DNA of 64,000 nucleotides from an uncultured cyanobacterium (GCA_963744145.1 CAVUSO010000001.1:1806831-1870830); one strand, 5' to 3'; numbered from the stretch's first letter, positions 9,141 through 45,780 are shown. Numbers and translations: made by a program. Notes: generated from the letters alone by a model not told the origin.

Positions 9141-9482
9141 GGGGGCGTGGCGGAATGGTAGACGCTACGGACTTAAAAAAATGAGCACTGGTAAAGAAAT
9201 TTATCAAGTGAATGCTCTCAAATTCAGGGAAACCTAAAGCTGAAAACAGATAAGGCAATCCTGAGCCAAGCCGAATCGATTTGTGATTCAATAAAAGGTA
9301 AAATGAATCATAGATCCACAATTCGGAAGGTGCAGAGACTCGACGGGAGCTACCCTAACGTAAAGTCGAGGGTAAAGGGAGAGTCCAATTCTCAACACCA
9401 TGAGGTAGTAGCGAAAGCTACAGGAGAATGAAAATCCGTTGACTGTAAAAAGGTCGTGAGGGTTCAAGTCCCTCTGCCCCCA
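9141..9482 (+). tRNA. trnL-UAA: tRNA-Leu(UAA) interrupted by a 256-nt group I intron (5' exon 9141-9174, intron 9175-9430, 3' exon 9431-9482)
   Basis: 5' exon gggggcgtggcggaatggtagacgctacggactt ends at U34 of the cuUAAaa anticodon loop. The 3' exon aaaatccgttgactgtaaaaaggtcgtgagggttcaagtccctctgcccccA restores the anticodon stem, long variable arm, T-arm and acceptor stem. The intron carries conserved group I core segments (ggaaggtgcagagactcgacgggagctaccctaacg; gagagtccaattctcaa; gtagcgaaagct; ...gagaatg|aaaatccgt). Confidence 0.85.
9175..9430 (+). ncRNA. Group I self-splicing intron within the tRNA-Leu(UAA) anticodon loop
   Basis: Inserted between U34 and A35. Its sequence is highly similar to the well-known cyanobacterial/plastid trnL intron core (P3, P7 elements). 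Confidence 0.8.
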
Positions 9483-24595: not shown

Positions 24596-25156
24596 TTAAT
24601 ATTCACCGACAAATTGAGGATGTACCCACAAAAATTCCCGTCGTTTGTTTTGGACTCGGATCAGTCCCCCAAAATCAGGATCTTTTTCTTTAAGTAAAAC
24701 ATGAATTTTTCTGAGGGTGGAACCTTCAGCACGAATCAGTTTACCTTGTGCTAATTCAGGAGGATCTGGTTTGGGTTGGGAATCTAGAGCCATATCGCTA
24801 CTTTTTAAAGCAAAGTCAAGACTCTTTTCACCTAAATCTAGTTCTTTTTCAAAGCTTTTGTAAGTTGCATCATCTAGTGCTAATTGGGTAACTGATGTTG
24901 CTAGGGGTAAAACCAAAGTTAGTGTTTTAGTCAAAGCTTTTAAGTAGGGAATTGCTCCCGTCACCCATTCACGATTTATTTCAAATTCATAAACACCCGT
25001 TTTAGTGTCTGGGTAATTTAGAAAAGGAAGTGGTTGACGAGAGTGTTCACACCAGAGGGTAAGTTTACACTTGATACTCATCCATTTGGGGCGATCGAAA
25101 AACCCTGGATCAATTAGTTTAATACTAAATAATCTTGGTCCAATCTTTAGCTTCAT
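24596..25156 (-). CDS. Hypothetical protein (186 aa), overlaps the ROCO gene stop by 32 bp (possible translational coupling)
   Basis: ORF only; no recognised motifs. Confidence 0.35.
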   Translation of the reverse strand: MKLKIGPRLFSIKLIDPGFFDRPKWMSIKCKLTLWCEHSRQPLPFLNYPDTKTGVYEFEINREWVTGAIPYLKALTKTLTLVLPLATSVTQLALDDATYKSFEKELDLGEKSLDFALKSSDMALDSQPKPDPPELAQGKLIRAEGSTLRKIHVLLKEKDPDFGGLIRVQNKRREFLWVHPQFVGEY

Positions 25157-28100
25157 CGATAAATGTTTGGATTACACCTTCATAATGTGCGTCGATCTGG
25201 CTTAGAATAGCACTACTCTCTTTAGATAACGTTGTTTTAATTTCATCAACAATATTTCGGACTTTTTCAGCATTAATATCTGGAGATAGTGGTTTAGATG
25301 TTGATGCGTTAGAAAGCATTTTATCAATGTCTTGCCATTCATCACAGCCTGTAATTGGACAGGGATAATCATGACGATTTTTCTTTTTACTTTCAATCAG
25401 CTTTTCTACTTCAAATAATCCTTGTCCTGGTGCTTTTCTTCCGCAAGGTTCAACGCAAGACACCATCACATTACACCGTAATCCTTCCCAGAAATGTTCG
25501 ATTAACCATTTCACCTCTTCTGTTAAATAGGAGAGAAATCTCTCTGGATAAGCAGCCCGTACTGTAATTTTGATATCTGTACCAATATATTCTAACAAAG
25601 CACGACCATTGTAATCATTATCAAGCATTAAGCCTCGTTGCCAGTGAATGCTGTCTTGGTATTTCTCACGTCCCAGAGAATATTTGTGCAAGCGAACAAT
25701 AAGTTGATAAAACAATCCTTCTGCATTAGCAAATTGTCCGCGATCGTCCACAATGCGGCAAATTTGTACTTGTTGTCTATCTCCTGGTGCTGGTAGTTCA
25801 CCCCAATCAGGAAATAGCTCTGGACGTTGGTCTGGTACTAATTGAGCAATCAAACTGGTGTTACTGGGTTCATTTGGGTCAAATACAACTTTGTAGGATA
25901 AATCGAAGCGTTCCATTAGTCGTAAAAACACTGGATGGAGTTCTTTTGGATAGCCCTTCTCATTTGCAAAGGGAGGATAGCTCCATAAATTGCTGAGGTG
26001 ATCAAAGTTCACCAATCCGTTCTGTTCGCGGGTGGTTTTATCATCTAAAACAAAACTGATTGCTTTGGCTAACCAGTCAGGTTTGAGAATCACAATATCC
26101 TGCAAAATGGGATCATAATGATAATGGATTAAATACCCTAGCGTGTGAGAAACCCGCACAAATAGTTCAGCAGCAAATCCCTTTAGACCTTGTTCCTCAC
26201 AAATTGCAATTACATCTTTGTATGGTAAATGGGTTTTGTTCGATTGTTCCAAAAGTTTCTGAATTTGTTGCCATTTCTGGGGAACTGTTCGACCTACACC
26301 AGGTAAGGTAATAGCTATTTTAGCAATTGTCTCTTTCAATTCTGCAATTCCAGAGCAAGACTGGTTTTCTAGATGAGGTTTGCTATCAATATGGAAGAAA
26401 TCAATAATAGTTTCACGACCAAATAGGTCAAATAATTCTTGGCGATCGATATCGGGCTGGCGCTGTCCAGGTCCACCGTGGGTTGCTACTACTAGAATCT
26501 TCGCATCTGGTTCTCGGTGTTTAATCAGAGTAATCCACTCTTTGACAAAGCCCTGTTGTGGTCCTTCCCGTGGTTTCCAGACTACTAAATATACCGCAGG
26601 GGCACTAAAAAACAACTGATGAGTAGGACGATAAACTCTTTGTCCGCCAAAATCCCAACCATTTAGGGTGATTTCTGTGTTGCAATCAGGAGTTTTAACA
26701 ATGACAGGTTTAATTTCAATTCCATGAGTTGTCGGACGACCATCTATCCATTGATCGCCGCGTAATGCTCCCAATAAACAACTTTTACCTACCTCTCCCT
26801 CTCCTACCAAAATTAACTTGGCTTCATTTAAAGTTACTTCTCCCTCTGCTTTTGCCCGTAGGTATTGCATGACTGCTTCTATACCTTGTTCATTAGCAGC
26901 AGCAAAATCAGGATTAAGCGGATTCTTGTCAAGCTTAAGTTCAGTTAGCTTAATAAGCTTTATTAAACTATGGGGCACTTCCGTCAATTGGTTATTGGAG
27001 AGGTAAAGCCTTTGCAACTGTGTGAGGGCTGCGAGCGCCGCTGGCACTTCCGTCAATTGGTTATTGGAGAGGTCAAGCCATTGCAACTGTGTGAGAGCTG
27101 CGAGCGCCGCTGGCACTTCCGTCAATTGGTTTTTGGAGAGGTCAAGCGCTCGCAACTGTGTGAGAGCTGCGAGCGCCGCTGGCACTTCCGTCAATTGGTT
27201 TTTGGAGAGGTCAAGCCATTGCAACTGTGTGAGAGCTGCGAGCGCCGCTGGCACTTCCGTCAATTGGTTTTTGGAGAGGTCAAGCCATTGCAACTGTGTG
27301 AGAGCTGCGAGCGCCGCTGGCACTTCCGTCAATTGGTTTTTGGAGAGGTCAAGCCATTGCAACTGTGTGAGAGCTGCGAGCGCCGCTGGCACTTCCGTCA
27401 ATTGGTTTTTGTTGAGGGAAAGCAATTGCAACTGTGTGAGGGAAAATATTACCTCTGGCACTTTTGTCAATTGGTTTTTGTCGAGGTAAAGCGCTCGCAA
27501 CTGTGTGAGAGCTGCGAGCGCCGCTGGCACTTCCGTCAATTGGTTATTGTCGAGGTAAAGCGCTCGCAACTGTGTGAGGGAAAATATTACCTCTGGCACT
27601 TCCGTCAATTGGTTATTGTCGAGGGAAAGCGATTGCAACTGTGTGAGGGCTGCGAGCGCCGCTGGCACTTCCGTCAATTGGTTTTTGTTGAGGGAAAGCG
27701 ATTGCAACTGTGTGAGGGAAAATATTACCTCTGGCACTTCCGTCAATTGGTTATTGTCGAGGGAAAGCGATTGCAACTGTGTGAGGGCTGCGAGCGCCGC
27801 TGGCACTTCCGTCAATTGGTTATTGTTGAGGGAAAGCGATTGCAACTGTGTGAGGGCTGCGAGCGCCGCTGGCACTTCCGTCAATTGGTTATTGTCGAGG
27901 TCAAGCCATTGCAACTGTGTGAGGGAAAATATTACCTCTGGCACTTTTGTCAATTGGTTTTTTGAATCTTTCCAAAATTTTCCACCAAGATTAAGTTTTT
28001 GCAAATTGGTAAGTTGACCGATCGCCTCTGGCACTTCCGTCAATCCCATATCGCTAAGATCAAGTTCTGTAGCTCCATTTTCCAGTGCTGCTTCAATGCG

Positions 28101-28157
28101 CCGTTCAGCTTCCCGATATGCTTCATCCCGTGCCATCGTCAACCTCTGCTTGCTCAC
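25125..28157 (-). CDS. ROCO-family protein: about 15 leucine-rich repeats + Roc (Ras-of-complex GTPase) + COR domain
   Basis: 23-aa LRR units NNQLTEVPAALAALTQLQSLSLD repeated. Roc P-loop LILVGEGEVGKSCLLGAL, DFGGQ switch II, followed by a COR-like region. Confidence 0.85.
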   Translation of the reverse strand: MSKQRLTMARDEAYREAERRIEAALENGATELDLSDMGLTEVPEAIGQLTNLQKLNLGGKFWKDSKNQLTKVPEVIFSLTQLQWLDLDNNQLTEVPAALAALTQLQSLSLNNNQLTEVPAALAALTQLQSLSLDNNQLTEVPEVIFSLTQLQSLSLNKNQLTEVPAALAALTQLQSLSLDNNQLTEVPEVIFSLTQLRALYLDNNQLTEVPAALAALTQLRALYLDKNQLTKVPEVIFSLTQLQLLSLNKNQLTEVPAALAALTQLQWLDLSKNQLTEVPAALAALTQLQWLDLSKNQLTEVPAALAALTQLQWLDLSKNQLTEVPAALAALTQLRALDLSKNQLTEVPAALAALTQLQWLDLSNNQLTEVPAALAALTQLQRLYLSNNQLTEVPHSLIKLIKLTELKLDKNPLNPDFAAANEQGIEAVMQYLRAKAEGEVTLNEAKLILVGEGEVGKSCLLGALRGDQWIDGRPTTHGIEIKPVIVKTPDCNTEITLNGWDFGGQRVYRPTHQLFFSAPAVYLVVWKPREGPQQGFVKEWITLIKHREPDAKILVVATHGGPGQRQPDIDRQELFDLFGRETIIDFFHIDSKPHLENQSCSGIAELKETIAKIAITLPGVGRTVPQKWQQIQKLLEQSNKTHLPYKDVIAICEEQGLKGFAAELFVRVSHTLGYLIHYHYDPILQDIVILKPDWLAKAISFVLDDKTTREQNGLVNFDHLSNLWSYPPFANEKGYPKELHPVFLRLMERFDLSYKVVFDPNEPSNTSLIAQLVPDQRPELFPDWGELPAPGDRQQVQICRIVDDRGQFANAEGLFYQLIVRLHKYSLGREKYQDSIHWQRGLMLDNDYNGRALLEYIGTDIKITVRAAYPERFLSYLTEEVKWLIEHFWEGLRCNVMVSCVEPCGRKAPGQGLFEVEKLIESKKKNRHDYPCPITGCDEWQDIDKMLSNASTSKPLSPDINAEKVRNIVDEIKTTLSKESSAILSQIDAHYEGVIQTFIDEAKDWTKII
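26940..27965. repeat. Near-perfect tandem 69-bp repeats (about 15 units) encoding the LRR solenoid of the ROCO protein
   Basis: Direct reading: ggcacttccgtcaattggtt(a/t)ttg(g/t)(a/c)gaggt(c/a)aagcc(a/t)ttgcaactgtgtgag(a/g)gctgcgagcgccgct reiterated. The long + strand ORFs here are shadow frames. Confidence 0.9.
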
Positions 28158-28487
28158 TCAATCCTCTACAAACTCAGTTATACTTTAATTTTGGCAAAAA
28201 ATTATAACCACAAATAGGATAATATTGATAAATATTCTCAAAAGATGGTGGTGCAGAAATTTCTACTTTAGTAGAATTATTAGATACAAGCTTGTTTTCC
28301 GATCGCGATCGCACCTCCCCCCTGAAACCTTAACATGATCTAATCAAATAGACGCAAAAATACTAATATATGAATTGTTAAATGCGCTGGTTTTTAGAAG
28401 AGCGATCGCACCTAAAAATTTAGACAAGCGATCGCACCTAAAAATTTAGACAAGCGATCGCCAACAATCTAGTTCTGATCTATGAAA

Positions 28488-29351
28488 TTAGGCATCTGCA
28501 TCAGGATCAATCCCCATTGCCCGTAGGCGTTCTGCAAGTCTTGCTGCTTTAATTTCAGCTTGTTCTGCCCGTTGATCCGCCTGGATAGCCCGTTGATCCG
28601 CTTGGATGGCCCGTTGATCCGCTTGGATGGCTCGCTGACGTTCCTGTTCAGCTTGCAGTTTTTCTAGCTCGGCTTTTTCATTGCCAATCAGTAATAGATT
28701 ACCTTCATGATCCCACCATCGCAACCAGATTTGCGTTTGGTTTTGATAAGTTCCTTGCCATAGCCCTAGTTCTACTCCTAATGGCTCAATCAAATAATGG
28801 TTACGTTCATTCGGCTCTAATTTTCGATAGGAAAAATCTACTAAGTGATACACTTCTAACTTGGCAGTTTTGATTTCATAGATGCCATAATAGGGAATCC
28901 GAATGATTTGTTCATACACCCAAAATTTCCCTGGTTTAATTTTCTTACCGTCGGGAGAAATGGCAAGTGGAGTTCGATCTCGTTCTTCTTCACCATTACC
29001 ACTAGCAAACTCTAAGGCAATCAATGGGGCTCTTAATTCCCGCCAAAACACATAGGAACGGCGGATCTCTCCATCAAGATTAGGTGGGACATTTGGCACA
29101 TAGAACCAATCGGGAGCTTCAGCACCTTTTTCGGGAGGATCAGTTTCCAGCCAGTAGATGCCACTATCTTGTCCAATACAATAATATCCATCTGGATGCA
29201 ATTGTTGTAAAATTTGCCCAATCGAGTCCGTCAGGATCAGACTCTGGGGATGTTCCTGAAAATTTTTCACAAATGTACCGTCTTCGTCTGGCAGTTGGGT
29301 ATGATCTGGGAAGGAGGAATGGCGATTTACTTGGGTTAATGTTTCTGTCAT
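28488..29351 (-). CDS. Uma2-family (DUF820) putative endonuclease with C-terminal coiled coil and AIQADQR x3 repeat; copy 1
   Basis: Uma2 signature blocks APDWFYVPNVPP..., PLIALEFASGNGEEERD..., GKFWVYEQIIRIPYYGIYEI... (PD-(D/E)xK-like), C-terminal ...LRAMGIDPD. Confidence 0.7.
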   Translation of the reverse strand: MTETLTQVNRHSSFPDHTQLPDEDGTFVKNFQEHPQSLILTDSIGQILQQLHPDGYYCIGQDSGIYWLETDPPEKGAEAPDWFYVPNVPPNLDGEIRRSYVFWRELRAPLIALEFASGNGEEERDRTPLAISPDGKKIKPGKFWVYEQIIRIPYYGIYEIKTAKLEVYHLVDFSYRKLEPNERNHYLIEPLGVELGLWQGTYQNQTQIWLRWWDHEGNLLLIGNEKAELEKLQAEQERQRAIQADQRAIQADQRAIQADQRAEQAEIKAARLAERLRAMGIDPDADA

Positions 29352-29510
29352 AATTTTAATCTTATTGCCGCTGATGTTAACTATAGCTTGAATAAATTAT
29401 GAACGATAGTGGTGCAGAAATTTCTAGTTTGGTGGAGTGATTAGATTCATGCTGGTTTTTGGATTGCGATCGCGCCTATTATTAAAATACTAATCTGATC
29501 TAATCAATTC

Positions 29511-29855
29511 ATGGAAGCGAGACCGAGAGAAATTCAAAACTACCTAACGACAGAGGGAAAAAGTCCTTATGAAGAATGGGTCGAATCATTTCGCGATCGC
29601 CAAACTAGATCTCAAATCGATAAGAGACTTAAACGAGTTAAATTAGGTAATCTAGGAGATTATCGATCTGTTGGAAAAGGAGTTTTTGAGCTTAGAATAG
29701 ATCAATGTCCGGGCAATCAGATTTATTTTGGTCAAATTGGATTAACCATAGTGCTGCTACTCTGTGGTGGAGATAAAAGCACCCAAGAACAGGATATTGG
29801 TAAAGCTAAGGAATATTGGAGAGATTATGAAAGACGTAAAAATACCAACCCATAG
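29511..29855 (+). CDS. Addiction-module killer protein (RelE/ParE superfamily, TIGR02683-like toxin); copy 1, intact
   Basis: KRVKLGNLGDYRSVGKGVFELRIDQCPGNQIYF...CGGDKSTQEQDIGKAKEYW matches the conserved block of the killer-protein family. Confidence 0.7.
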   Translation: MEARPREIQNYLTTEGKSPYEEWVESFRDRQTRSQIDKRLKRVKLGNLGDYRSVGKGVFELRIDQCPGNQIYFGQIGLTIVLLLCGGDKSTQEQDIGKAKEYWRDYERRKNTNP

Positions 29856-30150
29856 AAGTTACGACGAATATTTTATTTCTGCTCTGAAAAACTCCGATCG
29901 AGCGGCTGGGTATATCGAAGCTATTTTGGAACCAGAAGAACCTGATTCTGAACTATTGCGATCGGGAATCAAAGATGTAATCGAAGCTCGCGAACAGATG
30001 AATAGTCTCTCGGATGAAGCCAAACAGAAATGGGAGAAATTTGACCAAATGTTATCCAAAGATGGTGGTGCAGAAATTTATAGTCTGGTAGAATTATTAG
30101 ATGCTCTTGGGTTTCGGATCGCGATCGCTCCCAAGGAAACAAATCTGTAA
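29827..30150 (+). CDS. Addiction-module antidote protein (TIGR02684-like, DNA-binding); copy 1; start MKDVKIPTH overlaps the toxin stop
   Basis: Overlapping gene pair with the upstream toxin. Conserved C-terminus SDEAKQKWEKFDQMLSKDGGAEIYSLVELLDALGFRIAIA shared with copy 2. Confidence 0.65.
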   Translation: MKDVKIPTHRSYDEYFISALKNSDRAAGYIEAILEPEEPDSELLRSGIKDVIEAREQMNSLSDEAKQKWEKFDQMLSKDGGAEIYSLVELLDALGFRIAIAPKETNL

Positions 30151-30354
30151 TTGACAGCCTGTAAATTAAGCTGAATCAGCATCACATCAACATTTCTCTC
30201 AATCTACTTTGCGATGATTAACTATGATGCTGCTGCTTGAATTTAAGTCTCATTTTCTAATAATTCTGATAGTTGTTTGTAATTAACTTGAAGCCGAACT
30301 ACCTGAACATTTTTCCATTGTGTTTCGTCACGGATTGGAAGTTGAATTTGGAAT

Positions 30355-30789
30355 TCATAAAACCCTGATTCTAAACTTGTGAAAACTTGCAGCATTAGGT
30401 CGTTTCTCATATTGTAAAAGTAAATTGGCAAATTTTGTAGCCCACCAACCATTTTCTGCTTGAATAACAAATCCAGCAGCCGTTTGAGCTATTTCTAGAT
30501 TTACCATACTAAGCGCCCAGAGGTAAACAGCCAAAGCAGTATCCCAAGGATTCTCATATTCTAAATTAATTTCATTGCGTGAAAGATCAACAGCTCTTTT
30601 AAAAACCAACCAGATATTTTCAGGAGAGTCTTGAAGTTGCTTGACCAATTCTTTTGTCACCAATTCTTTCGATGCAGCACCCAAGAAGACTTTAAAACTG
30701 CTAGCAATATTCAACATAGCAGCAAATTCATGGCTTTCTACTTGAATCATAAGTTTTTTTAACACTAGCTTGTCCTCCTGTCTGTCCAA
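30355..30789 (-). CDS. Hypothetical protein (144 aa, TTG start) between the two Uma2-TA modules
   Basis: ORF only. Confidence 0.3.
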   Translation of the reverse strand: MDRQEDKLVLKKLMIQVESHEFAAMLNIASSFKVFLGAASKELVTKELVKQLQDSPENIWLVFKRAVDLSRNEINLEYENPWDTALAVYLWALSMVNLEIAQTAAGFVIQAENGWWATKFANLLLQYEKRPNAASFHKFRIRVL

Positions 30790-31006
30790 AATTCTCTGAT
30801 TGTTCCATAAGGTTCTGGGACTTCATCAATTAAGTGAATGTACTCACCATCAGCTCCCCATTGACTGATCACAGTAATCTCAAAAGATGCTTTTCTGATA
30901 TCTGGTTCCTTTTTGACTACTACAGCAACATGAGAATACTCGTCACCGATCGCTCCTAAAAATACTTAGATGAGTGTGCGCCAAGCATCTAGTCCAATAT
31001 GTAAAA

Positions 31007-31849
31007 TTAGTCATCCGTATCAGGGTCAATCCCCATTGCCCGTAGACGTTCTGCAAGTCTTGCTGCTTTAATTTCAGCTTGTTCTGCCCGTTGATCCGAT
31101 TGGATTGCCCGTTGATCCGCCTGGATGGCTCGCTGACGTTCCTGTTCAGCTTGCAGTTTTTCTAGCTCGGCTTTTTCATTGCCAATCAGTAATAGATTAC
31201 CTTCATCATCCCACCATCGTAACCAGATTTGCGTTTGGTTTTGATAAGTCCCTTGCCATAGCCCTAGTTCTACTCCTAAGGGCTCAATCAAATAATGGTT
31301 ACGTTCATTCGGCTCTAGTTTTTGATAGGAAAAATCTACTAAGTGATACACTTCTAATTTGGCAGTTTTGATTTCATAGATGCCATAATAGGGAATCCGA
31401 ATAATTTGCTCATACACCCAAAATTTCCCTGGTTTGATCTTTTTACCGTCGGGAGAAATTGCCAGCGGAGTTCGATCTCGTTCTTCTTGACCATTACCAC
31501 TAGCAAACTCTAAGGCAATCAATGGGGCTCTTAATTCCCGCCAAAACACATAGGAACGGCGGATCTCTCCATCAAGATTAGGTGGGACATTTGGCACATA
31601 GAACCAATCGGGAGCTTCAGCACCTTTTTCGGGAGGATCAGTTTCCAGCCAGTAGATGCCACTATCTTGTCCAATACAATAATATCCATCTGGATGCAAT
31701 TGTTGTAAAATTTGCCCAATCGAGTCCGTCAGGATCAGACTCTGGGGATGTTCCTGAAAATTTTTCACAAATGTACCGTCTTCATCTGGCAGTTGGGTAT
31801 GATCTGGAAATGAGGAATGGCGATTTACTTGGGTTAATGTTTCTGTCAT
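31007..31849 (-). CDS. Uma2-family putative endonuclease, copy 2 (about 97% identical to copy 1; AIQ(A/S)DQR x2)
   Basis: Collinear with 28488..29351, differing by one heptad-repeat unit and a few substitutions. Confidence 0.7.
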   Translation of the reverse strand: MTETLTQVNRHSSFPDHTQLPDEDGTFVKNFQEHPQSLILTDSIGQILQQLHPDGYYCIGQDSGIYWLETDPPEKGAEAPDWFYVPNVPPNLDGEIRRSYVFWRELRAPLIALEFASGNGQEERDRTPLAISPDGKKIKPGKFWVYEQIIRIPYYGIYEIKTAKLEVYHLVDFSYQKLEPNERNHYLIEPLGVELGLWQGTYQNQTQIWLRWWDDEGNLLLIGNEKAELEKLQAEQERQRAIQADQRAIQSDQRAEQAEIKAARLAERLRAMGIDPDTDD

Positions 31850-31997
31850 AATTTTAATCTTATTGCCGCTGATGTTAACTATAGCTTGAATAAATTATGA
31901 ACGATAGTGGTGCAGAAACTTCTAGTTTGGTAGAATTATTAGATGCTCTTGGGTTTCCGATCGCGATCGCACCTACTAATGAAAAACCGATCTGATC

Positions 31998-32353
31998 TAA
32001 TCAAATCATGGAAGCACAACCGAGAGAAATTCAACGTTACCTAACCCGCGAAGGTAGAATTCCTTTTGCTGAATGGCTGTATTCTATTCGAGAATCTTAA
32101 AACTAGAGCTAAAATCGATCATAGAATTAAGCGAGTCAAATTAGGTAATCTGGGAGATTATCGATCTGTTGGAGAAGGAGTATTTGAACTGAAGATCAAT
32201 TATGGCCCCGGCTACAGAGTTGATTTTGGTCAAATCGGATTAACCATCATAATTCTTCTATGTGGTGGAGATAAAAGTACCCAAGAACAGGATATTTGTC
32301 AGGCTAAGGAATATTGGAGAGATTATGAAAACCGTGAAAATTCCGACCAGTGA
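31998..32353 (+). pseudogene. Addiction-module killer protein, copy 2, disrupted by a +1 frameshift near 32090-32100 (N-terminal MEAQPREIQRYLTREGRIPFAEWLYSIRES* then out-of-frame continuation ...KIDHRIKRVKLGNLGDYRSVGEGVFELKINYGPGYRVDF...)
   Basis: Aligned with copy 1: the N-terminal 33 codons are in frame 1 and the conserved remainder is in another frame. The downstream antidote is intact. Confidence 0.6.
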
Positions 32354-32642
32354 TAGTTGGCAAGAAGCATTAATTGAATCTTTAAAAAATCTTGAATATG
32401 CTGCCGCTTATCTAGAGACTGCACTAGAAGAAAAAGAATCCGAACCAGAATTCTTGCCAGCTATAATCAAAGATGTAATCGAAGCTCGCGAACAGATGAA
32501 TAGTCTCTCGGATGAAGCTAAACAGAAATGGGAGAAATTTGACCAAATGTTATCCAAAGATGGTGGTGCGGAAATTTATAGTCTGGTAGAATTATTAGAT
32601 GCTCTTGGGTTTCGGATCGCGATCGCATCTAAAAATACCTAG
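32325..32642 (+). CDS. Addiction-module antidote protein, copy 2 (start MKTVKIPTS)
   Basis: C-terminal half is identical in protein to copy 1 (SDEAKQKWEKFDQMLSKDGGAEIYSLVELLDALGFRIAIA). Confidence 0.65.
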   Translation: MKTVKIPTSDSWQEALIESLKNLEYAAAYLETALEEKESEPEFLPAIIKDVIEAREQMNSLSDEAKQKWEKFDQMLSKDGGAEIYSLVELLDALGFRIAIASKNT

Positions 32643-32751
32643 ATGAGTGTATGCTAAGAATGTGGGAATATGTGAAAGTAGTCATCCGCATCAGGGTCAA
32701 TGGCTATTACTCACAGATATTCTGATGTTTAGAGCAACTCAAGGTATAATC

Positions 32752-33804
32752 ATGGATTGGAAACCAGAAACCACTTTAATTTTTGCCGTAGGAATTTTGA
32801 CATGGGAAAACTCGGATGTTTGGCCATCTTTTCCCGAAGCAATTCCAGGACGTTTTGATCAAAAATTGGTTGATTTTTTTCGCGCTCAAGGAGTTCCTGA
32901 AGCGCAAATTGTTTATTTACAAGATGCCAAGGCGACTCTGGCAGAAATTCAATCAACTCTACCAGAATTTTTAGCTAATCATAGTGATGAAGATTACCTA
33001 CTAATTTTTTATTTTGCTGGTCATGGAGATTGGGATAAAGAAACAGGTGAACATTATTTTATAAATTACGATGCTGATGGCGATGATCGAGATAATTATT
33101 GGTCAGTCACTTCGATTTTTGGTGATATTGAAGATAATTTTAAAGGTTCTAAGGCTTTGTTATTAGCTGATTGTTGCTTTTCAGGTGGTTTAATTGATCA
33201 GGTAAAGGAAGGAGATGATTTAGAGATTTCCTATGCTTGTATCAGTTCAGCTTATACCCATAACTTTTCGACCGGGAATTGGACTTTTACAGAAGCTTTG
33301 TATCAAGGATTGCTGGGAGATCCTGTAGTTGATTTAGACGGCGATCGCGAGATAACTTTATATGATTTTGCTCGTTATGCAGAATTAGAAATGGCTTTCA
33401 TTGAATCTCAGAAATCGATGTTTGTGACTACTAAAGATTTTGATCCTCAGATGGTGTTAGCAATTGTATCTGATGATATTCCAGCGATCGAAGGAAAGCG
33501 GGTCGAAGTAGAATATGAGAATGAGTGGTACAAAGCTAAGACTTTAGAAAGAGAAGGAGATCAAGTTTTAATCAAATATGTTGAGGATGATGAGGAACCA
33601 GCATGGGTAACCAATGATCAGATTCGTCCCTATCAACCAGAGCTGTTTGCTATTGGAGAAAAAGTAGAAGTTGAATCAGAAGAAGAATGGTGTTCAGCAA
33701 CGGTTTTAAAAGCTTGGTATGGGTTGCATTTGATTAGTTATGACGATTATGATGAGTCCTATAATGAATGGGTAGGAAGCGATCGCATTCGTCCTCAACA
33801 GTAG
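32752..33804 (+). CDS. Orthocaspase (peptidase C14 caspase-like domain) with two C-terminal Tudor/Agenet-like domains
   Basis: Catalytic dyad context YLLIFYFAGHGDWD (His) and KALLLADCCFSGGLID (Cys). Two repeats GKRVEVEYENEWYKAKTL...VLIKYVEDDEEPAWVTNDQIRP and GEKVEVESEEEWCSATVL...HLISYDDYDESYNEWVGSDRIRP. Likely start MDWKPE at 32752; the track start 32647 lies in repeat-derived sequence. Confidence 0.65.
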   Translation: MDWKPETTLIFAVGILTWENSDVWPSFPEAIPGRFDQKLVDFFRAQGVPEAQIVYLQDAKATLAEIQSTLPEFLANHSDEDYLLIFYFAGHGDWDKETGEHYFINYDADGDDRDNYWSVTSIFGDIEDNFKGSKALLLADCCFSGGLIDQVKEGDDLEISYACISSAYTHNFSTGNWTFTEALYQGLLGDPVVDLDGDREITLYDFARYAELEMAFIESQKSMFVTTKDFDPQMVLAIVSDDIPAIEGKRVEVEYENEWYKAKTLEREGDQVLIKYVEDDEEPAWVTNDQIRPYQPELFAIGEKVEVESEEEWCSATVLKAWYGLHLISYDDYDESYNEWVGSDRIRPQQ

Positions 33805-34250: not shown

Positions 34251-37200
34251 ATGACTGTCTATGTTTATATCACCGAGCAATGTAAAAATGACGCTAGCAG
34301 ACATGGTGCCATCAATGATATTGAGAAATTCAAGGAAAAGCTAGAAAATGACCAAAGTGCTCGTCTGCTCACTCGTCTTGATTATCGATATCACAGAAGG
34401 GTCATGGGGACGAATAGTAGCGCAAGATTGGTGATTGAAGAATATCGTACTGATCACGACACCATCGTTTTGTGTTTTGTAGGATATCATATCCGGAGTA
34501 GCGCTGATTACAGTTTATTACTAAACAGTCCAAACACTTACTACGAACGATATGGGGTAACAGATGAAGAAATTGAAGCATTTCTCAAAGAGAAAACTAT
34601 AAATCCAATCAAGAAAAAGCCACAACTGACAGAATTTGAATCTGAGTATCTTCAGTCTGCAAGCGGATACGATTACACTAATGATGGTGCCTTTTTAGAA
34701 AGTTACGACTGGGTTGAGCGCATTTCTGAAGATTGGGCTAAAAGCTACTTAAATCGTTACCATGATCTGATTTTTAAGTTGACAGAGGAAGTTGAAAGTT
34801 GTATAAGTCATGTAGGGATAGACACGCTTTCCCATGATAAGAACCCAAATATAAAAATAATTTTCCGGAGTTTTCCTGAACATAGACGAATTTTCCTGAT
34901 CGCTCCTATTAATTGGCAGAAAGATAGCGATGAAAAAAATATCCGTGAGCAATACGCCGATTTATTAACAGCAAACTCACTCAAAATGGAAGACCTAATC
35001 CGCAACAGTCTTCGCGCATATCCAACAATTATTATCTATGATGAAGATATTTGGATGCGAGTAGAAAATACTACAGAAGCAAATCTAGCCCTGTCACCAG
35101 AAGAAGAATGTGTTCTTGGATCTGTAAAAAGTCGAGTTAGCAATGGGGCTAAGTATCCTCTATTTATTAATGGTCGTCCTGGGAGCGGAAAATCTACAAT
35201 TCTTCAGTATTTATTTGCAGAACAGCTAGCTAATTTTATTAAATTGCTTAATAATTCAAACATCAATAATCCTCCACTTTATCTTACTTATAGTACGCCC
35301 TTGTTAGAAGAAGCCCGCGAATTAGTCAAAAAAATTTTAACTTGTGGAATTCGCCATGTAGAGGATGAAAGTATACAAGCATTTGTCACAGATTATAACA
35401 AACTGCATTCATGTTTCCGTAATTTTCGTGAGTTTTTGCGCTCATTACTACCACTCGAAATTCGCGATCGCTTTGTCCAAGCTAATTATGTAGACTTTGC
35501 TCGTTTTCGCAAACTTTGGGAAGACAAGCGTGGTAAACATCCGCAGAAGGAAGTCCGCAGCATTGGGCCGGAACTAGGGTGGCACGCAGTGAGAACTTTC
35601 ATTAAAGGTATGCAATCGGAATCGGGAATTGTGGTAGACCCTGATTATTATCGAGATGAGCTAGCGCGAGACAGTAAATCCATTTCCGATCAGACTTTTG
35701 AAATCATTTACGAGCATATTTGGAAGAAGTGGTATGAGCCTCTTTGTAAGAATGAAAAGTATTGGGATGACCAAGACTTAGCACTTGAGGTTCTGATTAA
35801 TGTAGGGGAACAATTATCGGGTTATCCAGCGGTGTTTTGCGATGAGGCTCAAGATTTCACCACGATTGAGCTAGGACTGATTGAGCGGCTTTCAGTCTAC
35901 TCTGGGAAAGAAATACATAGCTTTTGGGTAAAGAATGTACCCTTTGCCTTTGCTGGTGATCCGTTTCAGACTCTGAATCCAACAGGGTTTAATTGGAGTG
36001 CCATGCAATCTAATTTTTATGACAATATTATTAAGCAGTTAGATCCTAGGGGCATAGCGAAGCTAGAGTTTAATTTTCAGGAGCTAGCATTTAACTATCG
36101 ATCGGCAGAACATATTGTCAAACTCGCTAATCTGATTCAATTACTACGTGCTGTCTTACTTCGGATTAAGGGAATTCGTCCTCAATATAGCTGGACTCGT
36201 AAAATTACCAACAGTCCTGTTTATTTTCGGTGGGATGATATTAACTGCCGCGCCAAACTCCGTGAACAAGATGAATTAGTTATGATTGTTCCTTGTCAGG
36301 AAAATGGTGAATTTGAATATGTAAAAGAAAATGAATTTCTGACATCGATCGCGATTAATCAGGCTGGAGAAATATCTAGAAACATTCTCAGTCCAGCCAG
36401 GGCTAAGGGCTTAGAGTATGATCGGGTTGTTCTCTATGGATTTGGTGATGAAGCAGGAAAGCGTTTTCCAGATTTACTAGCACAGATCAATGATCCTAGT
36501 AAAGATCCGCCGGATCTAGAACAAAGATTATCATGGGAGTATTTTCTCAATCAGTTTTATGTGGCGATTAGTCGTCCCCGTAAGCGATTATTTATAGTTG
36601 ATTCAGATGAATCATTGAAAAATTTCTGGTTGTTCACTGCTCCTCTAAAACAAAAAGTATTGCTCAGTCTCTATGATCTTTATCAACCTAATCATAATTG
36701 GAGTTTAGATGAACTGGGAGGTATGCTGGAAGGGGATAATTCAAGTTGGTTAGACGATCGAGACGATCCTTTAGAATTAGCTTCTCAATGGCGAGATCAG
36801 GGTCAGCTTCAGCGTGATCCTTATTTATTACGTCTGGCTAAAGATAACTTCTATCGGGCTGAGCGTTTTGAGGACGCAAGTTTGTGTGAAGCTAAACAAT
36901 ATGAATATGAAGGTGAGTTTAAAAAAGCTGCGGAACTATTTATTAATCTTGGTCAATCTGGTGAAGCTTGTCGTTGTTACTGGACAGATCGAGATGCTAA
37001 CTCGGTCGTTCGTTTGGTTGAAAAGTTTCCTAAGATTACAACTGATCTACGTTTTATTGCTGCGGGTTCTATTGTGAGAGAGCGCAATACAGTATTCCAG
37101 CTTAATCACGTACTGACAGCACTCGAACAAACCCCCCCATCATTGACAGAGCTACCGGAGGAAGTGGAGGGGTGGCGCTGGTTTTTTAGTTGTTTTGCAG

Positions 37201-38723
37201 ACAAGATCAGTGAAGAAATCTTAGCTTCTGACCGCGCAACAGCAGAATGGAAACCCTATATTGAACGTTTGATTCAAACTATTAAACGGTTTGAATTACC
37301 TCTGAGCGCTTATCCAGAAATTGCTAAACTCCTTTATTTGTCTGGAGATGCAAGAGTCGCGATCGATCACTGGAATCGGTACTGTCGGGATTATAAATCC
37401 GATCGACCGGGAGAAAAATGGCTCACTCAAGCCCGAGCAGAAACAGAAGCATATCCTACAAATATCCGTTTTTACCATGAACTGGGTGATTATCAAACGG
37501 TTATTAATCAATGGACATTAGCCGATCGCATCATCGATAGCGATACACCAGTAAGTTTGCTACTTGATAGCGCCGCTAGGTTGAATGATCTTACAGCACT
37601 GCGAGCTATATTACCAGCAACTGACGATCTTAACAAATTGAATCGGGCGCTTAGTCTGCTTAATGACAAGACTATTCTCTCTTTAGAGGGAGCATTATGC
37701 GTTGCAATTACCCACTCAATGGAATCTTATGGTGATGGGGAAAAAATTATCCAGTTTGTGGTCAACAAAACCACCTCAAACAAAGAGCTAGATGCGAGAA
37801 TTAAAAATGCAGGAATCGCATGGAAAGGTAAAGTGTTAATAGCTGCGGCAGTTCGAGCTATAGCCCGTTCAGAGCGATTATTCCAAGATCAGGTTAAAGC
37901 TCAAAAAATATCTGAATTTTTGAAGCAAGTTCTAATTTTAGAAAAAGATGCAAATCCCAATAAACAAAATCGAGTCAAGTCGGTTTTGGAATTAATAGAT
38001 ATTACCGAGGCTGGAGCAGCATTTGAAAGAGGATTTCGTCGGTTAAATTATGCACTGGATTTTTATGAACAATTCTTTGAAAATAGCTATCTTGCTTATC
38101 GTGTACTAAATCCTTCTCAGGAGCAAACTGAGTTTGCTAAACTACGATGGATTTTTTGCAAGCGTCGTTTAGCTGATATCACCAGGGATAATAAATATAG
38201 GACTGAGGCTGACAATCGGGGACGTGAGTGGAATATTTCAACTAATCAAAAACCTGATTCTCTAAACCTTCAGCCCATCAGTGAGCTAAAGCTTTCTATT
38301 CCTGGACTAGCTGCTCCATCATCCAGTCCTTCAGCTAGTGAAATAACCAAACAAAAACAACCATTACCAACCAAAATTAAACCATTAGATAAAAGTAAGA
38401 AAACGATTATATTCAAATTAGATAACCAGCAAATAAAAGTGGAAGCTTTTCCCCTGAAAAAGCGAATTATTTTGACTGATTATGAAACTCAAAACCAAGT
38501 AAAATGCGAGTTTCAAAATGTGACAAGTGAAGATATTGAGATTAAGGAGGAAGTCTCTGTCTCTGAACAGATCCGAATCTGGAATATTTCTGATTGGGGA
38601 CTTCGATGTGAAATGGAAGCTAAAGAAGATTTAGCGACAATCCGTTTTCGTCTTCCTCATGGAGTGGTAAAGGAATTTAGATTTATCGTGAATAAAAAAG
38701 TCGAAGATAAAGATCACCCCTAG
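34251..38723 (+). CDS. Giant (1490 aa) UvrD/Rep-like SF1 helicase fusion protein with an unknown ~280-aa N-terminal region and a ~650-aa C-terminal alpha-helical/TPR-like plus beta-rich extension
   Basis: Motif I FINGRPGSGKSTIL, II VFCDEAQDF, III FAGDPFQTLNP, IV FNYRSAEHIV, V ARAKGLEYDRVVLYGF, VI YVAISRPRKRLFIVD. Confidence 0.7.
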   Translation: MTVYVYITEQCKNDASRHGAINDIEKFKEKLENDQSARLLTRLDYRYHRRVMGTNSSARLVIEEYRTDHDTIVLCFVGYHIRSSADYSLLLNSPNTYYERYGVTDEEIEAFLKEKTINPIKKKPQLTEFESEYLQSASGYDYTNDGAFLESYDWVERISEDWAKSYLNRYHDLIFKLTEEVESCISHVGIDTLSHDKNPNIKIIFRSFPEHRRIFLIAPINWQKDSDEKNIREQYADLLTANSLKMEDLIRNSLRAYPTIIIYDEDIWMRVENTTEANLALSPEEECVLGSVKSRVSNGAKYPLFINGRPGSGKSTILQYLFAEQLANFIKLLNNSNINNPPLYLTYSTPLLEEARELVKKILTCGIRHVEDESIQAFVTDYNKLHSCFRNFREFLRSLLPLEIRDRFVQANYVDFARFRKLWEDKRGKHPQKEVRSIGPELGWHAVRTFIKGMQSESGIVVDPDYYRDELARDSKSISDQTFEIIYEHIWKKWYEPLCKNEKYWDDQDLALEVLINVGEQLSGYPAVFCDEAQDFTTIELGLIERLSVYSGKEIHSFWVKNVPFAFAGDPFQTLNPTGFNWSAMQSNFYDNIIKQLDPRGIAKLEFNFQELAFNYRSAEHIVKLANLIQLLRAVLLRIKGIRPQYSWTRKITNSPVYFRWDDINCRAKLREQDELVMIVPCQENGEFEYVKENEFLTSIAINQAGEISRNILSPARAKGLEYDRVVLYGFGDEAGKRFPDLLAQINDPSKDPPDLEQRLSWEYFLNQFYVAISRPRKRLFIVDSDESLKNFWLFTAPLKQKVLLSLYDLYQPNHNWSLDELGGMLEGDNSSWLDDRDDPLELASQWRDQGQLQRDPYLLRLAKDNFYRAERFEDASLCEAKQYEYEGEFKKAAELFINLGQSGEACRCYWTDRDANSVVRLVEKFPKITTDLRFIAAGSIVRERNTVFQLNHVLTALEQTPPSLTELPEEVEGWRWFFSCFADKISEEILASDRATAEWKPYIERLIQTIKRFELPLSAYPEIAKLLYLSGDARVAIDHWNRYCRDYKSDRPGEKWLTQARAETEAYPTNIRFYHELGDYQTVINQWTLADRIIDSDTPVSLLLDSAARLNDLTALRAILPATDDLNKLNRALSLLNDKTILSLEGALCVAITHSMESYGDGEKIIQFVVNKTTSNKELDARIKNAGIAWKGKVLIAAAVRAIARSERLFQDQVKAQKISEFLKQVLILEKDANPNKQNRVKSVLELIDITEAGAAFERGFRRLNYALDFYEQFFENSYLAYRVLNPSQEQTEFAKLRWIFCKRRLADITRDNKYRTEADNRGREWNISTNQKPDSLNLQPISELKLSIPGLAAPSSSPSASEITKQKQPLPTKIKPLDKSKKTIIFKLDNQQIKVEAFPLKKRIILTDYETQNQVKCEFQNVTSEDIEIKEEVSVSEQIRIWNISDWGLRCEMEAKEDLATIRFRLPHGVVKEFRFIVNKKVEDKDHP

Positions 38724-42932: not shown

Positions 42933-43439
42933 GTGGTGAAATCATCAGTAAGGGATAGAAATTAAATAACTAGCTTGCTTGTAGTAACACATCAGAGCGA
43001 AGACAGCGCTTACTACGAACCAAACCGTCAAGTTATTTATTTTTCATTCCTAATGGCATCTTATATGTTGTTAAAAATTCGATCCCGTATAACTTTAAAA
43101 GGTTAGGTTTTTTTGGACGGTTCAACAATTGTTTTATCCGCTAACTATAACAAAAGATTTATTATGTTCGATCGCCCTCAACATCGCAATTAGGCTCAAT
43201 CCCACACAAACCTTCTATTCCAAGAACAGCTTCTTCAAATAAAGGAATCGGAAAACTAGGTTCTACATCAAAAGCATCTCGGTGAGCCCGCATAAACCGA
43301 AGACGGTGTTCTCGTAGATAATTATGTAAAAATCCAGAATTTATCGTCATAATCGTATTTCCTCATCCAACACTTTTTAAGTTATCTGCTGCAAATTATA
43401 TGCACCCATTCAGAATAGGTTTTGAGTTTGGATGCACTT

Positions 43440-45233: not shown

Positions 45234-45403
45234 AGAAGGAACATAGGACTTTAAAAAAGTTTTTTATCTAAGCCTCCTTGGCCTTGTCTGTAGTCTCAAG
45301 CCTATCAACGTTTAATCCCGATATTTAGGGCAGTAAACTGCAATTTTACCGGATTTGGAAGGCTTAAGATGCAATTTGCTGGCCATTCGCAAATTGGAAG
45401 AAT

Positions 45404-45646
45404 TTAGGCATCACCATCGAAGGAACAGATGCATATGATAGCTGCATCTACACCATCGAAGGAACAAATGGTTGGAACGAAAGCTGCATCTACACCATCG
45501 AAGGAACAGATGCATATCATAGCTGCATCTACACCAGCACCACCGAGAGCTTCCTCAGATAGTTCAGCCAAGTGGCTGGGGAGTTGACCATTGGTAATGC
45601 GGAGTACGGGTTTGGCTTGTTGGGGCAGGATATTTTTCTTATTCAT
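45404..45646 (-). CDS. patE: Cyanobactin precursor peptide (PatE-like), 80 aa: conserved leader + three core cassettes
   Basis: Leader MNKKNILPQQAKPVLRITNGQLPSHLAELSEEALGGA is PatE-like. The rest is GVDAA-MICIC-SFDG-VDAA-FVPTIC-SFDG-VDAA-IICIC-SFDGDA. The DNA shows three cassette repeats at 45420-45540. The track ORF (to 45745) has a spurious N-terminal extension. Confidence 0.8.
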   Translation of the reverse strand: MNKKNILPQQAKPVLRITNGQLPSHLAELSEEALGGAGVDAAMICICSFDGVDAAFVPTICSFDGVDAAIICICSFDGDA

Positions 45647-45780
45647 GGAACTAATCCTTATTTTGTTGCTTGGTTTGTTGACCCGTTTAGGTGGGTTAAT
45701 CCTCTCCTTCATTGAGAAGAAGGCTGATGAAGCAACATCTGGCACGTAGAGAAGCCCGTTGCCTGCAAACTTTAAAAGAC

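What the first reader, a model, noticed from the sequence alone, without database searches (positions are those of the whole stretch)
28200..33804. Duplicated module: Uma2-family endonuclease + RelE/ParE-type killer/antidote pair, arranged head-to-tail twice
Module 1 (28488-30150) and module 2 (31007-32642) are ~95% identical at the DNA level. A third partial copy of the module's leading sequence (tagatgagtgt…gtcatccgtatcagggtcaat) lies at 32643-32720 and forms the 5' region of the orthocaspase gene.

Degenerate relics of the antidote 3' end (…gatggtggtgcagaaatttct…gatcgcgatcgc) sit just upstream of each Uma2 gene at 28225-28310, 29395-29470 and 31895-31980. This implies repeated insertion of Uma2 next to older TA copies. 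The Uma2 copies differ by one AIQADQR heptad unit.

The pattern suggests an actively rearranging defense/addiction hotspot. Pairing Uma2 (a putative PD-(D/E)xK nuclease) with TIGR02683/TIGR02684-type TA genes as a unit is not, to my knowledge, a described system.
Basis: partly seen in the sequence, partly recalled or inferred. Interest (0 to 1): 0.7.

Follow-up and report, generated by a model that had tools for sequence, protein, structure and literature searches.

The report
Tandem toxin-antitoxin array carrying Uma2
A cyanobacterial chromosome carries a decaying head-to-tail array of a known toxin-antitoxin gene pair that has swept along an unrelated Uma2 nuclease gene; the three genes are not a conserved system, so this is an ordinary rearrangement hot spot.

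Summary
The repeat is real, but its numbers and meaning need correcting. Unit 1 (28429-30128) and unit 2 (30947-32626) are 87.8% identical, not about 95%. The identity is mosaic. Uma2 plus its upstream junction is 95-100% identical and the antitoxin 3' half 98%. The toxin is 79% and the antitoxin 5' half 58%. The antitoxin-3' relics, the third truncated Uma2 end and the one-heptad difference are all confirmed.

The Uma2+TA "unit" is not conserved. None of 80 loci around Uma2 orthologues in other cyanobacteria holds this TA. Most TA homologues stand alone.

The same antitoxin-3' relic lies about 34 nt upstream of the toxin in genomes that have no Uma2 nearby. TA-TA and T-A/T-A-A/T-A arrays also occur elsewhere. 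The relics therefore mark tandem TA duplication and decay, not repeated Uma2 insertion.

The Uma2-relic junctions are shared between units, so a single capture was followed by duplication or gene conversion. The array is eroding. Toxin 2 has a +1 frameshift. Toxin 1 has lost the family's GYR motif. An 825-bp insertion splits the array, and unit 3 is truncated.

Both Uma2 copies are intact (dN/dS 0.06). Unrelated Uma2 paralogues do sit near this TA family in 3 of about 16 other contexts. That points to shared cassette hot spots. Verdict: ordinary, low interest.

The parts
28205..28316 (+). Relic R0a: about 110 nt copy of the antitoxin 3' end (codons ~65-101), ending in a double HIP1 (GATCGCGATCGC)
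   Evidence: blastn 28206-28312 vs 30022-30128, 79.8%, E 3e-16; repeat family D4; tblastn A1 residues 75-92
28366..28416 (+).
   Evidence: tblastn 70.6% identity; repeat family D8
28393..28461 (.). 26-nt tandem repeat (2.7 copies), each copy holding a HIP1 site. It reiterates the antitoxin-end/tail junction.
   Evidence: TRF, 95% matches; HIP1 at 28402, 28428 and 28454
28488..29351 (-). Uma2-1: PD-(D/E)xK-type Uma2 family protein, 287 aa, with a C-terminal heptad-repeat tail (3.4 x 21 nt)
   Evidence: PF05685, 61.8 bits; identical to database protein P0001; all ortholog-invariant residues kept
29402..29477 (+). Relic R1 of the antitoxin 3' end. It sits between the Uma2-1 start and the toxin-1 start, ends 34 nt before the toxin ATG, and has an in-frame stop.
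   Evidence: local alignment z=23 against shuffles
29511..29855 (+). Toxin T1, RelE/ParE superfamily (HI1419 type), 114 aa. The ORF is intact, but the family-conserved GYR motif reads GNQ.
   Evidence: TIGR02683, 114.6 bits vs cut-off 62.85; alignment with 15 homologues
29827..30150 (+). Antitoxin A1, 107 aa (ATG 29827). It overlaps the toxin by 29 nt and belongs to a divergent HI1420-like family. Its last codons were altered by the downstream insertion.
   Evidence: identical to P0121; TIGR02684, 21.5 bits, below cut-off; 21 of 29 homologues weakly hit PF21716
30132..30956 (.). 825-bp insertion that splits the array. It is bounded by the 10-nt direct repeat CGATCGCTCC (30122-30131 and 30947-30956). 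On the minus strand it carries a 5'-truncated ORF and a probably frameshifted ORF pair of unknown family.
   Evidence: removing it restores an A1->Uma2-2 junction collinear with the A2->Uma2-3 junction; frame translations; no Pfam/NCBIfam hit
31007..31849 (-). Uma2-2, 280 aa, 96.8% identical in DNA to Uma2-1, with one heptad fewer
   Evidence: PF05685, 63.1 bits; P0002; dN/dS 0.064 against Uma2-1
31900..31975 (+). Relic R2 of the antitoxin 3' end, upstream of toxin 2. It is still an open 32-codon frame.
   Evidence: 91.5% to 30058-30128, E 6e-23; z=41; translation
32008..32353 (+). Toxin T2 pseudogene. A +1 frameshift lies between 32080 and 32098, and deleting any one base there restores a 114-aa ORF.
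   Evidence: tblastn matches in two frames; repair test; TIGR02683, 105.1 bits for the 3' ORF
32325..32642 (+). Antitoxin A2, 105 aa. The 3' half is 98% identical to A1 and the 5' half 58%.
   Evidence: P0122
32643..32724 (-). Remnant of a third Uma2 copy (tail junction plus the last ~15-19 codons). It is truncated and lies just upstream of the probable orthocaspase start.
   Evidence: 30947-31030 vs 32620-32701, 82%, E 1e-14; repeat family D9
32753..33804 (+). Neighbouring orthocaspase (Peptidase_C14 plus Agenet/Tudor), with probable start at ATG 32753. It is not part of the repeat.
   Evidence: PF00656, 33 bits; PF05641, 45 bits; NF047832 alignment begins at profile position 40 at residue 82 of the GTG ORF

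Best explanation
This is a eroding tandem array of a known type II toxin-antitoxin cassette in a cyanobacterial chromosome. An independent Uma2 nuclease gene became embedded in the array once and was then copied along with it.

Shown:
- The repeating unit is [Uma2 (minus strand) - antitoxin-3' relic - toxin - antitoxin].
- There are two full units, a leading relic pair before unit 1 and a truncated third unit.
- The units fall into two age classes. The toxin and the antitoxin 5' half are old (dS 0.6 to 2). The tract running from the antitoxin 3' half through Uma2 into the first 34 nt of the relic is young (dS 0.14-0.19).

Inferred:
- This cassette family duplicates head to tail by unequal recombination in the highly conserved, HIP1-containing 3' end of the antitoxin gene. 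That process leaves antitoxin-3' relics directly upstream of the next toxin promoter.
- Uma2 replaced most of one unit.
- Later unequal crossing-over and gene conversion spread and homogenised the Uma2-containing tract.

Function:
- The TA pair should work as an ordinary RelE/ParE-type toxin neutralised by its overlapping, downstream-encoded antitoxin. This rests on family membership.
- Both toxins look compromised here: T2 is frameshifted and T1 has GYR changed to GNQ. Both antitoxins and both Uma2 genes are intact.
- Uma2 acts on its own. Its orthologues are conserved in many cyanobacteria without this TA. Its cellular role is unknown; the family is predicted to be an endonuclease.
For: - Repeat structure and mosaic identity.
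- Two age classes by dS: Uma2 0.143, antitoxin codons 47-end 0.19, toxin 0.635, antitoxin codons 1-46 2.1.
- Shared junctions: 97.6% across the Uma2 upstream/relic junction. The A-tail/Uma2-3' junction is present three times.
- Relics without Uma2: the antitoxin C-terminal relic ends about 34 nt before the toxin start in L081-84, L087-90 and L095, and a relic is also present in L099. Local-alignment z scores are 19-76.
- Tandem arrays of the same family elsewhere: L100/L102 T-A-T-A, with copies 78.6% identical, like here. L094 is A-T-A. L123 is A-A with a toxin remnant. L124 is T-A, T-A-A, T-A.
- No conserved co-occurrence: 0 of 80 loci (1.13 Mb) around Uma2 orthologues of 61-75% identity hold a T or A homologue at E<1e-3. 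No gene is a conserved neighbour of Uma2 across genera.
- Uma2 is intact and under purifying selection: dN/dS 0.064, and every residue invariant in 120 orthologues is kept.
- Decay: T2 frameshift, T1 GYR->GNQ, the 825-bp insertion with a 10-nt repeat, and the truncated third unit.
Against: - Uma2 paralogues of other subfamilies lie within 56-630 nt of this TA family in 3 of about 16 other contexts: L092/93, L109/110 and L125/126. That is more than a uniform background of about 10 Uma2 genes per Mb predicts, so some non-random link cannot be excluded. A shared hot spot is the likeliest form, but a functional or mechanistic tie is possible.
- The order of events (replacement, duplication, conversion) is inferred from one genome. 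No closely related strain was available for comparison.
- The T2 frameshift could be a sequencing error.
- No expression or activity data exist.
Confidence: 0.75

Rival explanations
1. Uma2, toxin and antitoxin form one functional three-gene addiction or defence module that was duplicated as a unit.
For: The three genes are repeated together, with Uma2 and the toxin diverging across a 159-nt region. Other Uma2 paralogues lie next to this TA family in L092/93, L109/110 and L125/126.
Against: 0 of 80 orthologue loci of this Uma2 clade carry the TA. About 13 of 16 other TA contexts lack Uma2. Where Uma2 is adjacent, it belongs to a different subfamily (a 189-aa canonical form, a Uma2+DUF4351 form, a 197-aa form) and sits in a different position and orientation each time. 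PADLOC gives no hit. In this window the toxins are decaying while Uma2 is under strong purifying selection.
Confidence: 0.05
2. Uma2 is a selfish, mobile nuclease cassette (homing-like or HIP1-associated) that repeatedly targets the HIP1-containing 3' end of the antitoxin gene and duplicates its target on insertion.
For: Uma2-1 is flanked by direct copies of the antitoxin 3' end (28241-28316 and 29402-29477, 82%). Breakpoints coincide with HIP1 sites. Uma2 paralogues recur next to this TA family.
Against: The same relic is present upstream of toxins that have no Uma2 nearby. Only 2 of 74 Uma2 orthologues elsewhere have flanking direct repeats. None of the 80 orthologue loci carries an antitoxin relic. 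The junctions in the window are shared between units, which argues for one event plus copying.
Confidence: 0.1
3. The duplication is an assembly artefact, either a mis-assembled repeat or a chimera.
For: Repeats are error-prone in assemblies. The T2 frameshift lies next to a short A run.
Against: The units differ by 12% overall and by more than 40% in the antitoxin 5' half, and the differences are codon-structured (dN/dS 0.06-0.3). An artefact would not produce that. Both Uma2 and both antitoxin proteins are separate database entries from one 7.63-Mb contig.
Confidence: 0.03

Closest known systems
HI1419/HI1420-type type II toxin-antitoxin pairs (RelE/ParE toxin TIGR02683 / COG3657, with antidote TIGR02684 / PF21716 / COG3636)
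   Same: Toxin first and antitoxin second, with a 29-nt overlap. The toxin scores well above the TIGR02683 cut-off. Antitoxin homologues are named 'DNA-binding phage protein' or 'transcriptional regulator' by sources, and 21 of 29 weakly match PF21716. The COG3657 + COG3636 pair is listed in PMC2701414.
   Different: The antitoxin is a divergent cyanobacterial branch that scores below the curated cut-offs, and its HTH fold could not be confirmed. This branch habitually forms tandem arrays and leaves antitoxin-3' relics. In this window T2 is frameshifted and T1 lacks the GYR motif.
Uma2 / DUF820 / TT1808 family (PF05685, COG4636), a predicted PD-(D/E)xK endonuclease expanded in cyanobacteria
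   Same: Clear Pfam membership and conserved motif residues. The family is described as abundant in cyanobacteria, as a possible solo toxin, and as rarely associated with known antitoxins (PMC2701414, PMC3424549).
   Different: This clade carries a C-terminal heptad-repeat tail of variable length, and it is conserved at 61-78% identity across many genera. Here it sits inside a TA array, which its orthologues elsewhere do not.
Tandemly amplified TA arrays and orphan antitoxins in bacterial chromosomes
   Same: Head-to-tail copies, partial units, toxin loss with antitoxin retention, and gene-conversion mosaics.
   Different: The repeat unit here includes a passenger gene (Uma2). Breakpoints coincide with the cyanobacterial HIP1 palindrome.

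Membership tests
Uma2 (PF05685) | Score above Pfam's gathering threshold over most of the domain | tested here: met
   61.8 and 63.1 bits against a cut-off of 27, covering profile positions 35-168 of 172
Uma2 (PF05685) | Conserved acidic/lysine motif residues of the PD-(D/E)xK-like core retained | tested here: met
   Both copies keep every residue invariant in 120 orthologues, including E33, P80-D81, E114-F-A-S and K142. Assigning these to catalytic roles is my inference.
Uma2 (PF05685) | Endonuclease activity | not testable with these tools
   The family is only a predicted endonuclease (PMC3424549). phmmer found no close solved structure.
RelE/ParE toxin, TIGR02683 (upstrm_HI1419) | Score above the curated cut-off | tested here: met
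   T1 scores 114.6 bits and the T2 3' ORF 105.1 bits, against a cut-off of 62.85
RelE/ParE toxin, TIGR02683 (upstrm_HI1419) | Intact reading frame and family-conserved core motif (GYR..FGQ) | tested here: not met
   T2 has a +1 frameshift. T1 reads GNQ where at least 80% of 17 family members read GYR. Equating this motif with the RelE active-site arginine comes from memory and was not tested.
Addiction-module antidote, TIGR02684 / PF21716 (dnstrm_HI1420) | Score above the curated cut-off | tested here: not met
   21.5 and 23.5 bits against a cut-off of 53.7. 21 of 29 homologues hit PF21716 only weakly, with best E 9e-6.
Addiction-module antidote, TIGR02684 / PF21716 (dnstrm_HI1420) | Encoded immediately downstream of, and overlapping, an HI1419-type toxin | tested here: met
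   A 29-nt overlap occurs in the window and in nearly all homologous loci
Addiction-module antidote, TIGR02684 / PF21716 (dnstrm_HI1420) | XRE-type helix-turn-helix fold | tested here: inconclusive
   The AF2 model has pLDDT 83 and five helices. Foldseek against the PDB gave no match at E<0.001, and HipB appeared only at low probability. A profile search of PDB sequences gave nothing relevant.
Type II toxin-antitoxin system (functional) | Toxin arrests growth and the antitoxin neutralises it | not testable with these tools
   Needs expression assays
Proposed Uma2 + TA three-gene system | Conserved co-occurrence across genomes | tested here: not met
   0 of 80 Uma2-orthologue loci carry the TA. 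Uma2 lies near the TA in only 3 of about 16 other TA contexts, each time a different subfamily and geometry.
Known anti-phage defence systems (PADLOC-DB v2) | Match to a defence-system protein model | tested here: not met
   No hit for either Uma2 or either antitoxin, and only chance-level Csm4 matches for T1

The most novel reading that the evidence does not exclude
In cyanobacteria, HI1419/HI1420-like TA cassettes and Uma2 nuclease genes could be shuffled as short cassettes whose boundaries lie at HIP1 (GCGATCGC) sites. The doubly HIP1-marked antitoxin 3' end would then act as a preferred recombination or insertion point. That would explain four things together: the family-wide antitoxin-3' relics, the arrays, the HIP1-bounded direct repeats around some cassettes, and the recurrent nearby Uma2 genes. 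It would also give HIP1 a concrete role in accessory-gene rearrangement.
Probability: 0.12. Interest if true: 0.55.

Novelty: new member of a known kind. Interest (0 to 1): 0.2.

Why it matters
It matters mainly as a correction. A striking repeat that looked like a new three-gene defence or addiction system is a tandem array of a known TA family with a passenger gene. It should not be catalogued as a new system.

Two modest by-products may be useful. First, this cyanobacterial branch of the HI1420-like antitoxins is missed by the curated models. It also habitually leaves 3'-end relics and forms arrays, which can mislead annotation. Second, several breakpoints coincide with HIP1 sites, which adds anecdotal material to the open question of what HIP1 does.

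Tried and rejected
- Looked for T/A homologues in 80 loci around Uma2 orthologues. Found none, even at E up to 10 nothing credible appeared.
- Looked for any conserved neighbour of Uma2 orthologues. Found none beyond within-genus synteny.
- Looked for synteny between the window and the nearest relatives. Found none.
- Tested whether Uma2 orthologues are flanked by direct repeats, as mobile cassettes would be. Only 2 of 74 were.
- Asked whether the relic is a conserved small ORF. Rejected: R1 has an in-frame stop, and the relics in L081, L087 and L090 differ by several amino-acid changes.
- Ran PADLOC on all genes of the locus. Nothing relevant.
- Searched PDB sequences for Uma2, the toxin and the antitoxin profile. 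Nothing informative.
- Predicted the antitoxin structure and ran Foldseek against the PDB. Inconclusive.
- Searched Rfam across the window. Nothing in the locus.
- Scanned for promoters and terminators. Counts did not exceed the shuffles.
- Tried to look up the source genome by exact protein sequence. The closest Uma2 relatives are in Laspinema.
- Ran Pfam and NCBIfam on the ORFs of the 825-bp insertion. No family.
- The metagenome scan returned only 16 TA loci, so the count of TA contexts stays small, at about 16.

Full report
**1. What is in the sequence**

The window is cyanobacterial. The HIP1 octamer GCGATCGC occurs 62 times where 0.4 is expected.

Between 28.2 and 32.7 kb there are two full copies of a unit. 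Each unit holds:
- a minus-strand Uma2 gene (28488-29351, 287 aa; 31007-31849, 280 aa; PF05685 at 61.8 and 63.1 bits);
- a plus-strand pair of small overlapping genes.

The first gene of each pair is a RelE/ParE-superfamily toxin (TIGR02683, 114.6 and 105.1 bits against a cut-off of 62.85). The second gene starts at ATG 29827 or 32325, not at the upstream GTG of the longest ORF. Its products are identical to the database proteins P0121 (107 aa) and P0122 (105 aa). It matches the partner family TIGR02684 only below threshold (21.5 and 23.5 bits against 53.7). 21 of 29 homologues weakly match PF21716, dnstrm_HI1420.

**2. Check of the observation**

blastn aligns 28429-30128 with 30947-32626 at 87.8% over 1711 columns, not about 95%. 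The identity is strongly mosaic:

| Segment | Identity |
|---|---|
| Uma2 5' half | 99.1% |
| Uma2 3' half (plus one 21-nt heptad indel) | 95.2% |
| Uma2 upstream region plus first 34 nt of the relic | 97.6% |
| Rest of the relic plus toxin promoter | 77% |
| Toxin | 78.8% |
| Antitoxin codons 1-46 | 57.6% |
| Antitoxin codons 47-101 | 98.2% |

Synonymous divergence shows the same split: Uma2 0.14, antitoxin 3' half 0.19, toxin 0.64, antitoxin 5' half about 2.

The relics of the antitoxin 3' end are real. They lie at 28205-28316, 29402-29477 and 31900-31975, with E values from 1e-9 to 1e-23. A fourth relic lies at 28366-28416. It overlaps a 26-nt, HIP1-containing tandem repeat.

The third partial Uma2 end at 32620-32724 is real (82%, E 1e-14). 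It most likely sits upstream of the true orthocaspase start at ATG 32753, because the caspase-domain alignments imply that the domain begins about 7 residues after that methionine. The one-heptad difference between the Uma2 copies is confirmed.

**3. Anatomy of the array**

Read along the plus strand, the order is:

R0a, R0b | Uma2-1(-) | R1 | T1 A1 | 825-bp insertion | Uma2-2(-) | R2 | T2(pseudo) A2 | Uma2-3 remnant | orthocaspase

The 825-bp segment is bounded by the 10-nt direct repeat CGATCGCTCC (30122-30131 and 30947-30956). Removing it recreates an A1-to-Uma2-2 junction collinear with the A2-to-Uma2-3 junction. The original array was therefore a plain head-to-tail repeat of [Uma2 - relic - T - A] with a period of about 1.7 kb. 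The insertion carries only a 5'-truncated ORF and an apparently frameshifted ORF pair with no recognisable family.

T2 carries a +1 frameshift between 32080 and 32098. Deleting any single base there restores a full 114-aa toxin. T1 is intact, but it reads GNQ where at least 80% of 17 family members read GYR.

Both Uma2 genes keep every residue that is invariant among 120 orthologues, and they differ mostly at synonymous sites (dN/dS 0.064).

**4. Is Uma2 + TA a conserved unit?**

From the Uma2 side, the answer is no. This Uma2 clade, which has a C-terminal heptad tail, has thousands of homologues. Orthologues of 61-78% identity occur in Laspinema, Coleofasciculus, Moorena, Microcoleus, Nostoc, Prochloron and others. 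In 80 genome loci around them (1.13 Mb), tblastn with T1, A1, A2 and T2 finds nothing at E<1e-3. No other gene is a conserved neighbour across genera.

From the TA side, the answer is mostly no. The antitoxin family has about 236 database homologues, all cyanobacterial. In about 16 distinct genomic contexts, the T(114 aa)-A(about 105 aa) pair usually stands alone among unrelated genes.

A Uma2 gene lies nearby in three contexts:
- L109/110: a canonical 189-aa Uma2, same strand, 84 nt upstream of T.
- L092/93: a Uma2+DUF4351 protein, same strand, 56 nt downstream of A.
- L125/126: a 197-aa Uma2, opposite strand, behind an inserted PemK-type pair.

In L116-121, L125's context has no insert at that position. 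These are different Uma2 subfamilies in different geometries. They point to shared insertion hot spots rather than to an operon.

The frequency is nevertheless higher than a uniform background of about 10 Uma2 genes per Mb would give. I keep that as a minor open point.

[quoted passage not shown] It also lists RelE COG3657 + HTH COG3636 in its table of characterised and candidate TA pairs (PMC2701414). PADLOC has no model matching these genes.

**5. What the relics mean**

The same relic, the last 20-30 codons of the antitoxin, ends about 34 nt before the toxin start in L081-84, L087-90 and L095. None of these has a Uma2 nearby. L099 also carries a relic. Local-alignment z scores are 19-76 against shuffles.

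Whole or partial tandem arrays of this family are common:
- L100/102: T-A-T-A, with copies 78.6% identical, the same divergence as here.
- L094: A-T-A.
- L123: a toxin remnant followed by A-A.
- L124: T-A, T-A-A, T-A within 3.2 kb.

The relics are therefore a signature of head-to-tail duplication and decay of the TA cassette itself. The C-terminal GGAEIYSLVELLDALGFRIAIAPK is the most conserved part of the protein. Its coding sequence contains a double HIP1, which makes it a natural site for unequal recombination.

Uma2 orthologues elsewhere are not flanked by direct repeats (2 of 74). The repeats flanking Uma2 in the window therefore belong to the TA array, not to Uma2. Both Uma2 junctions are shared between units, so a single capture of Uma2 into the array, followed by duplication or gene conversion of the tract [antitoxin 3' half - Uma2 - relic start], is the simplest history.

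**6. How it most likely works**

- The TA pair (inferred from family): a RelE/ParE-type toxin held in check by its co-translated antitoxin.
- State in this window (shown): both toxins are compromised, both antitoxins are intact, and the locus carries an insertion and truncations. This is a decaying array.
- Uma2 (shown): intact, under purifying selection and conserved elsewhere without the TA.
- Uma2 (inferred): it acts independently. Its biochemical role remains only a predicted endonuclease (PMC3424549).

Attempts to place the antitoxin fold among HTH proteins were inconclusive.

**7. Comparison, novelty and verdict**

The parts are members of known kinds: the Uma2 family, and the HI1419-type toxin with a divergent HI1420-like antidote. 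The arrangement is a tandem amplification with a passenger gene.

The 'repeated Uma2 insertion' and the 'new Uma2-TA system' are not.

The most novel reading still open is that HIP1 sites delimit and promote the shuffling of such cassettes. Supporting hints are:
- the 10-nt HIP1-overlapping repeat around the 825-bp insertion;
- HIP1 at the left edge of the conserved toxin promoter block in most loci;
- 40-60-nt HIP1-bounded direct repeats flanking the cassette in L111/L112.

I rate this about 12% likely on present evidence. Overall interest is low (0.2).

Noticed in passing
window 30122-30956: An 825-bp insertion is bounded by the 10-nt direct repeat CGATCGCTCC, which overlaps HIP1. On the minus strand it carries a 5'-truncated ORF (ending ...EVPEPYGTIREFWTDRRTS) and an apparently frameshifted ORF pair (30355-30789 and 30243-30470). 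No Pfam, NCBIfam or PADLOC family matches.
   Followed up: partly
L081-L121 upstream of the toxin start (e.g. L100 4636-4684): A conserved ~45-nt block, GCGATCGC-TTTCAAGTAAATTAAGCCATGAYGCGTTTAYAATC, directly precedes the toxin start codon in most loci of this TA family. Its TATAAT-like box lies about 6-8 nt from the start, which may mean a leaderless mRNA. Cross-locus similarity begins at the HIP1 site.
   Followed up: partly
L111 ~4555-4595 and ~5345-5385; L112 likewise: The TA cassette is flanked by a 40-60-nt direct repeat of host sequence that starts, and in L112 also ends, at HIP1 sites. It looks like a duplication made on insertion.
   Followed up: no
L124 227-3390 (Microcoleus sp., GCA_036700505): An array of three toxins and four antitoxins of the same family lies next to a Rieske gene, with a 157-aa minus-strand ORF of no known family between units. 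L116 (one TA) and L125 (TA + PemK pair + Uma2) occupy the same Rieske-adjacent position.
   Followed up: partly
window 29700-29725 (T1 residues ~64-72): Toxin 1 reads DQCPGNQ where the family consensus is (D/N)YGPGYR. Toxin 2 keeps GYR but is frameshifted.
   Followed up: partly
window 9165-9406 (+): A group I catalytic intron matches Rfam RF00028 at 85.5 bits (E 2e-20). ARAGORN finds no tRNA gene anywhere in the window, so the host gene of the intron was not identified.
   Followed up: no
window 25125-28157 (-): A 1010-aa LRR-Roc-COR (ROCO) protein. Its LRR region is a 69-nt tandem repeat of 13.8 copies at 89% identity (26974-27925), which also creates long spurious ORFs on the opposite strand.
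   Followed up: partly
window 39066-48129 (-): A cyanobactin-type biosynthetic cluster: a PatG-like oxidase/protease (ThcOx, Peptidase_S8, PatG_C), a methyltransferase with DUF5838, and a YcaO cyclodehydratase.
   Followed up: no
window 34251-38723 (+): A 1490-aa protein with only a weak UvrD_C match and weak PADLOC GajB-like helicase matches. It lies next to an orthocaspase that carries Agenet/Tudor domains.
   Followed up: no
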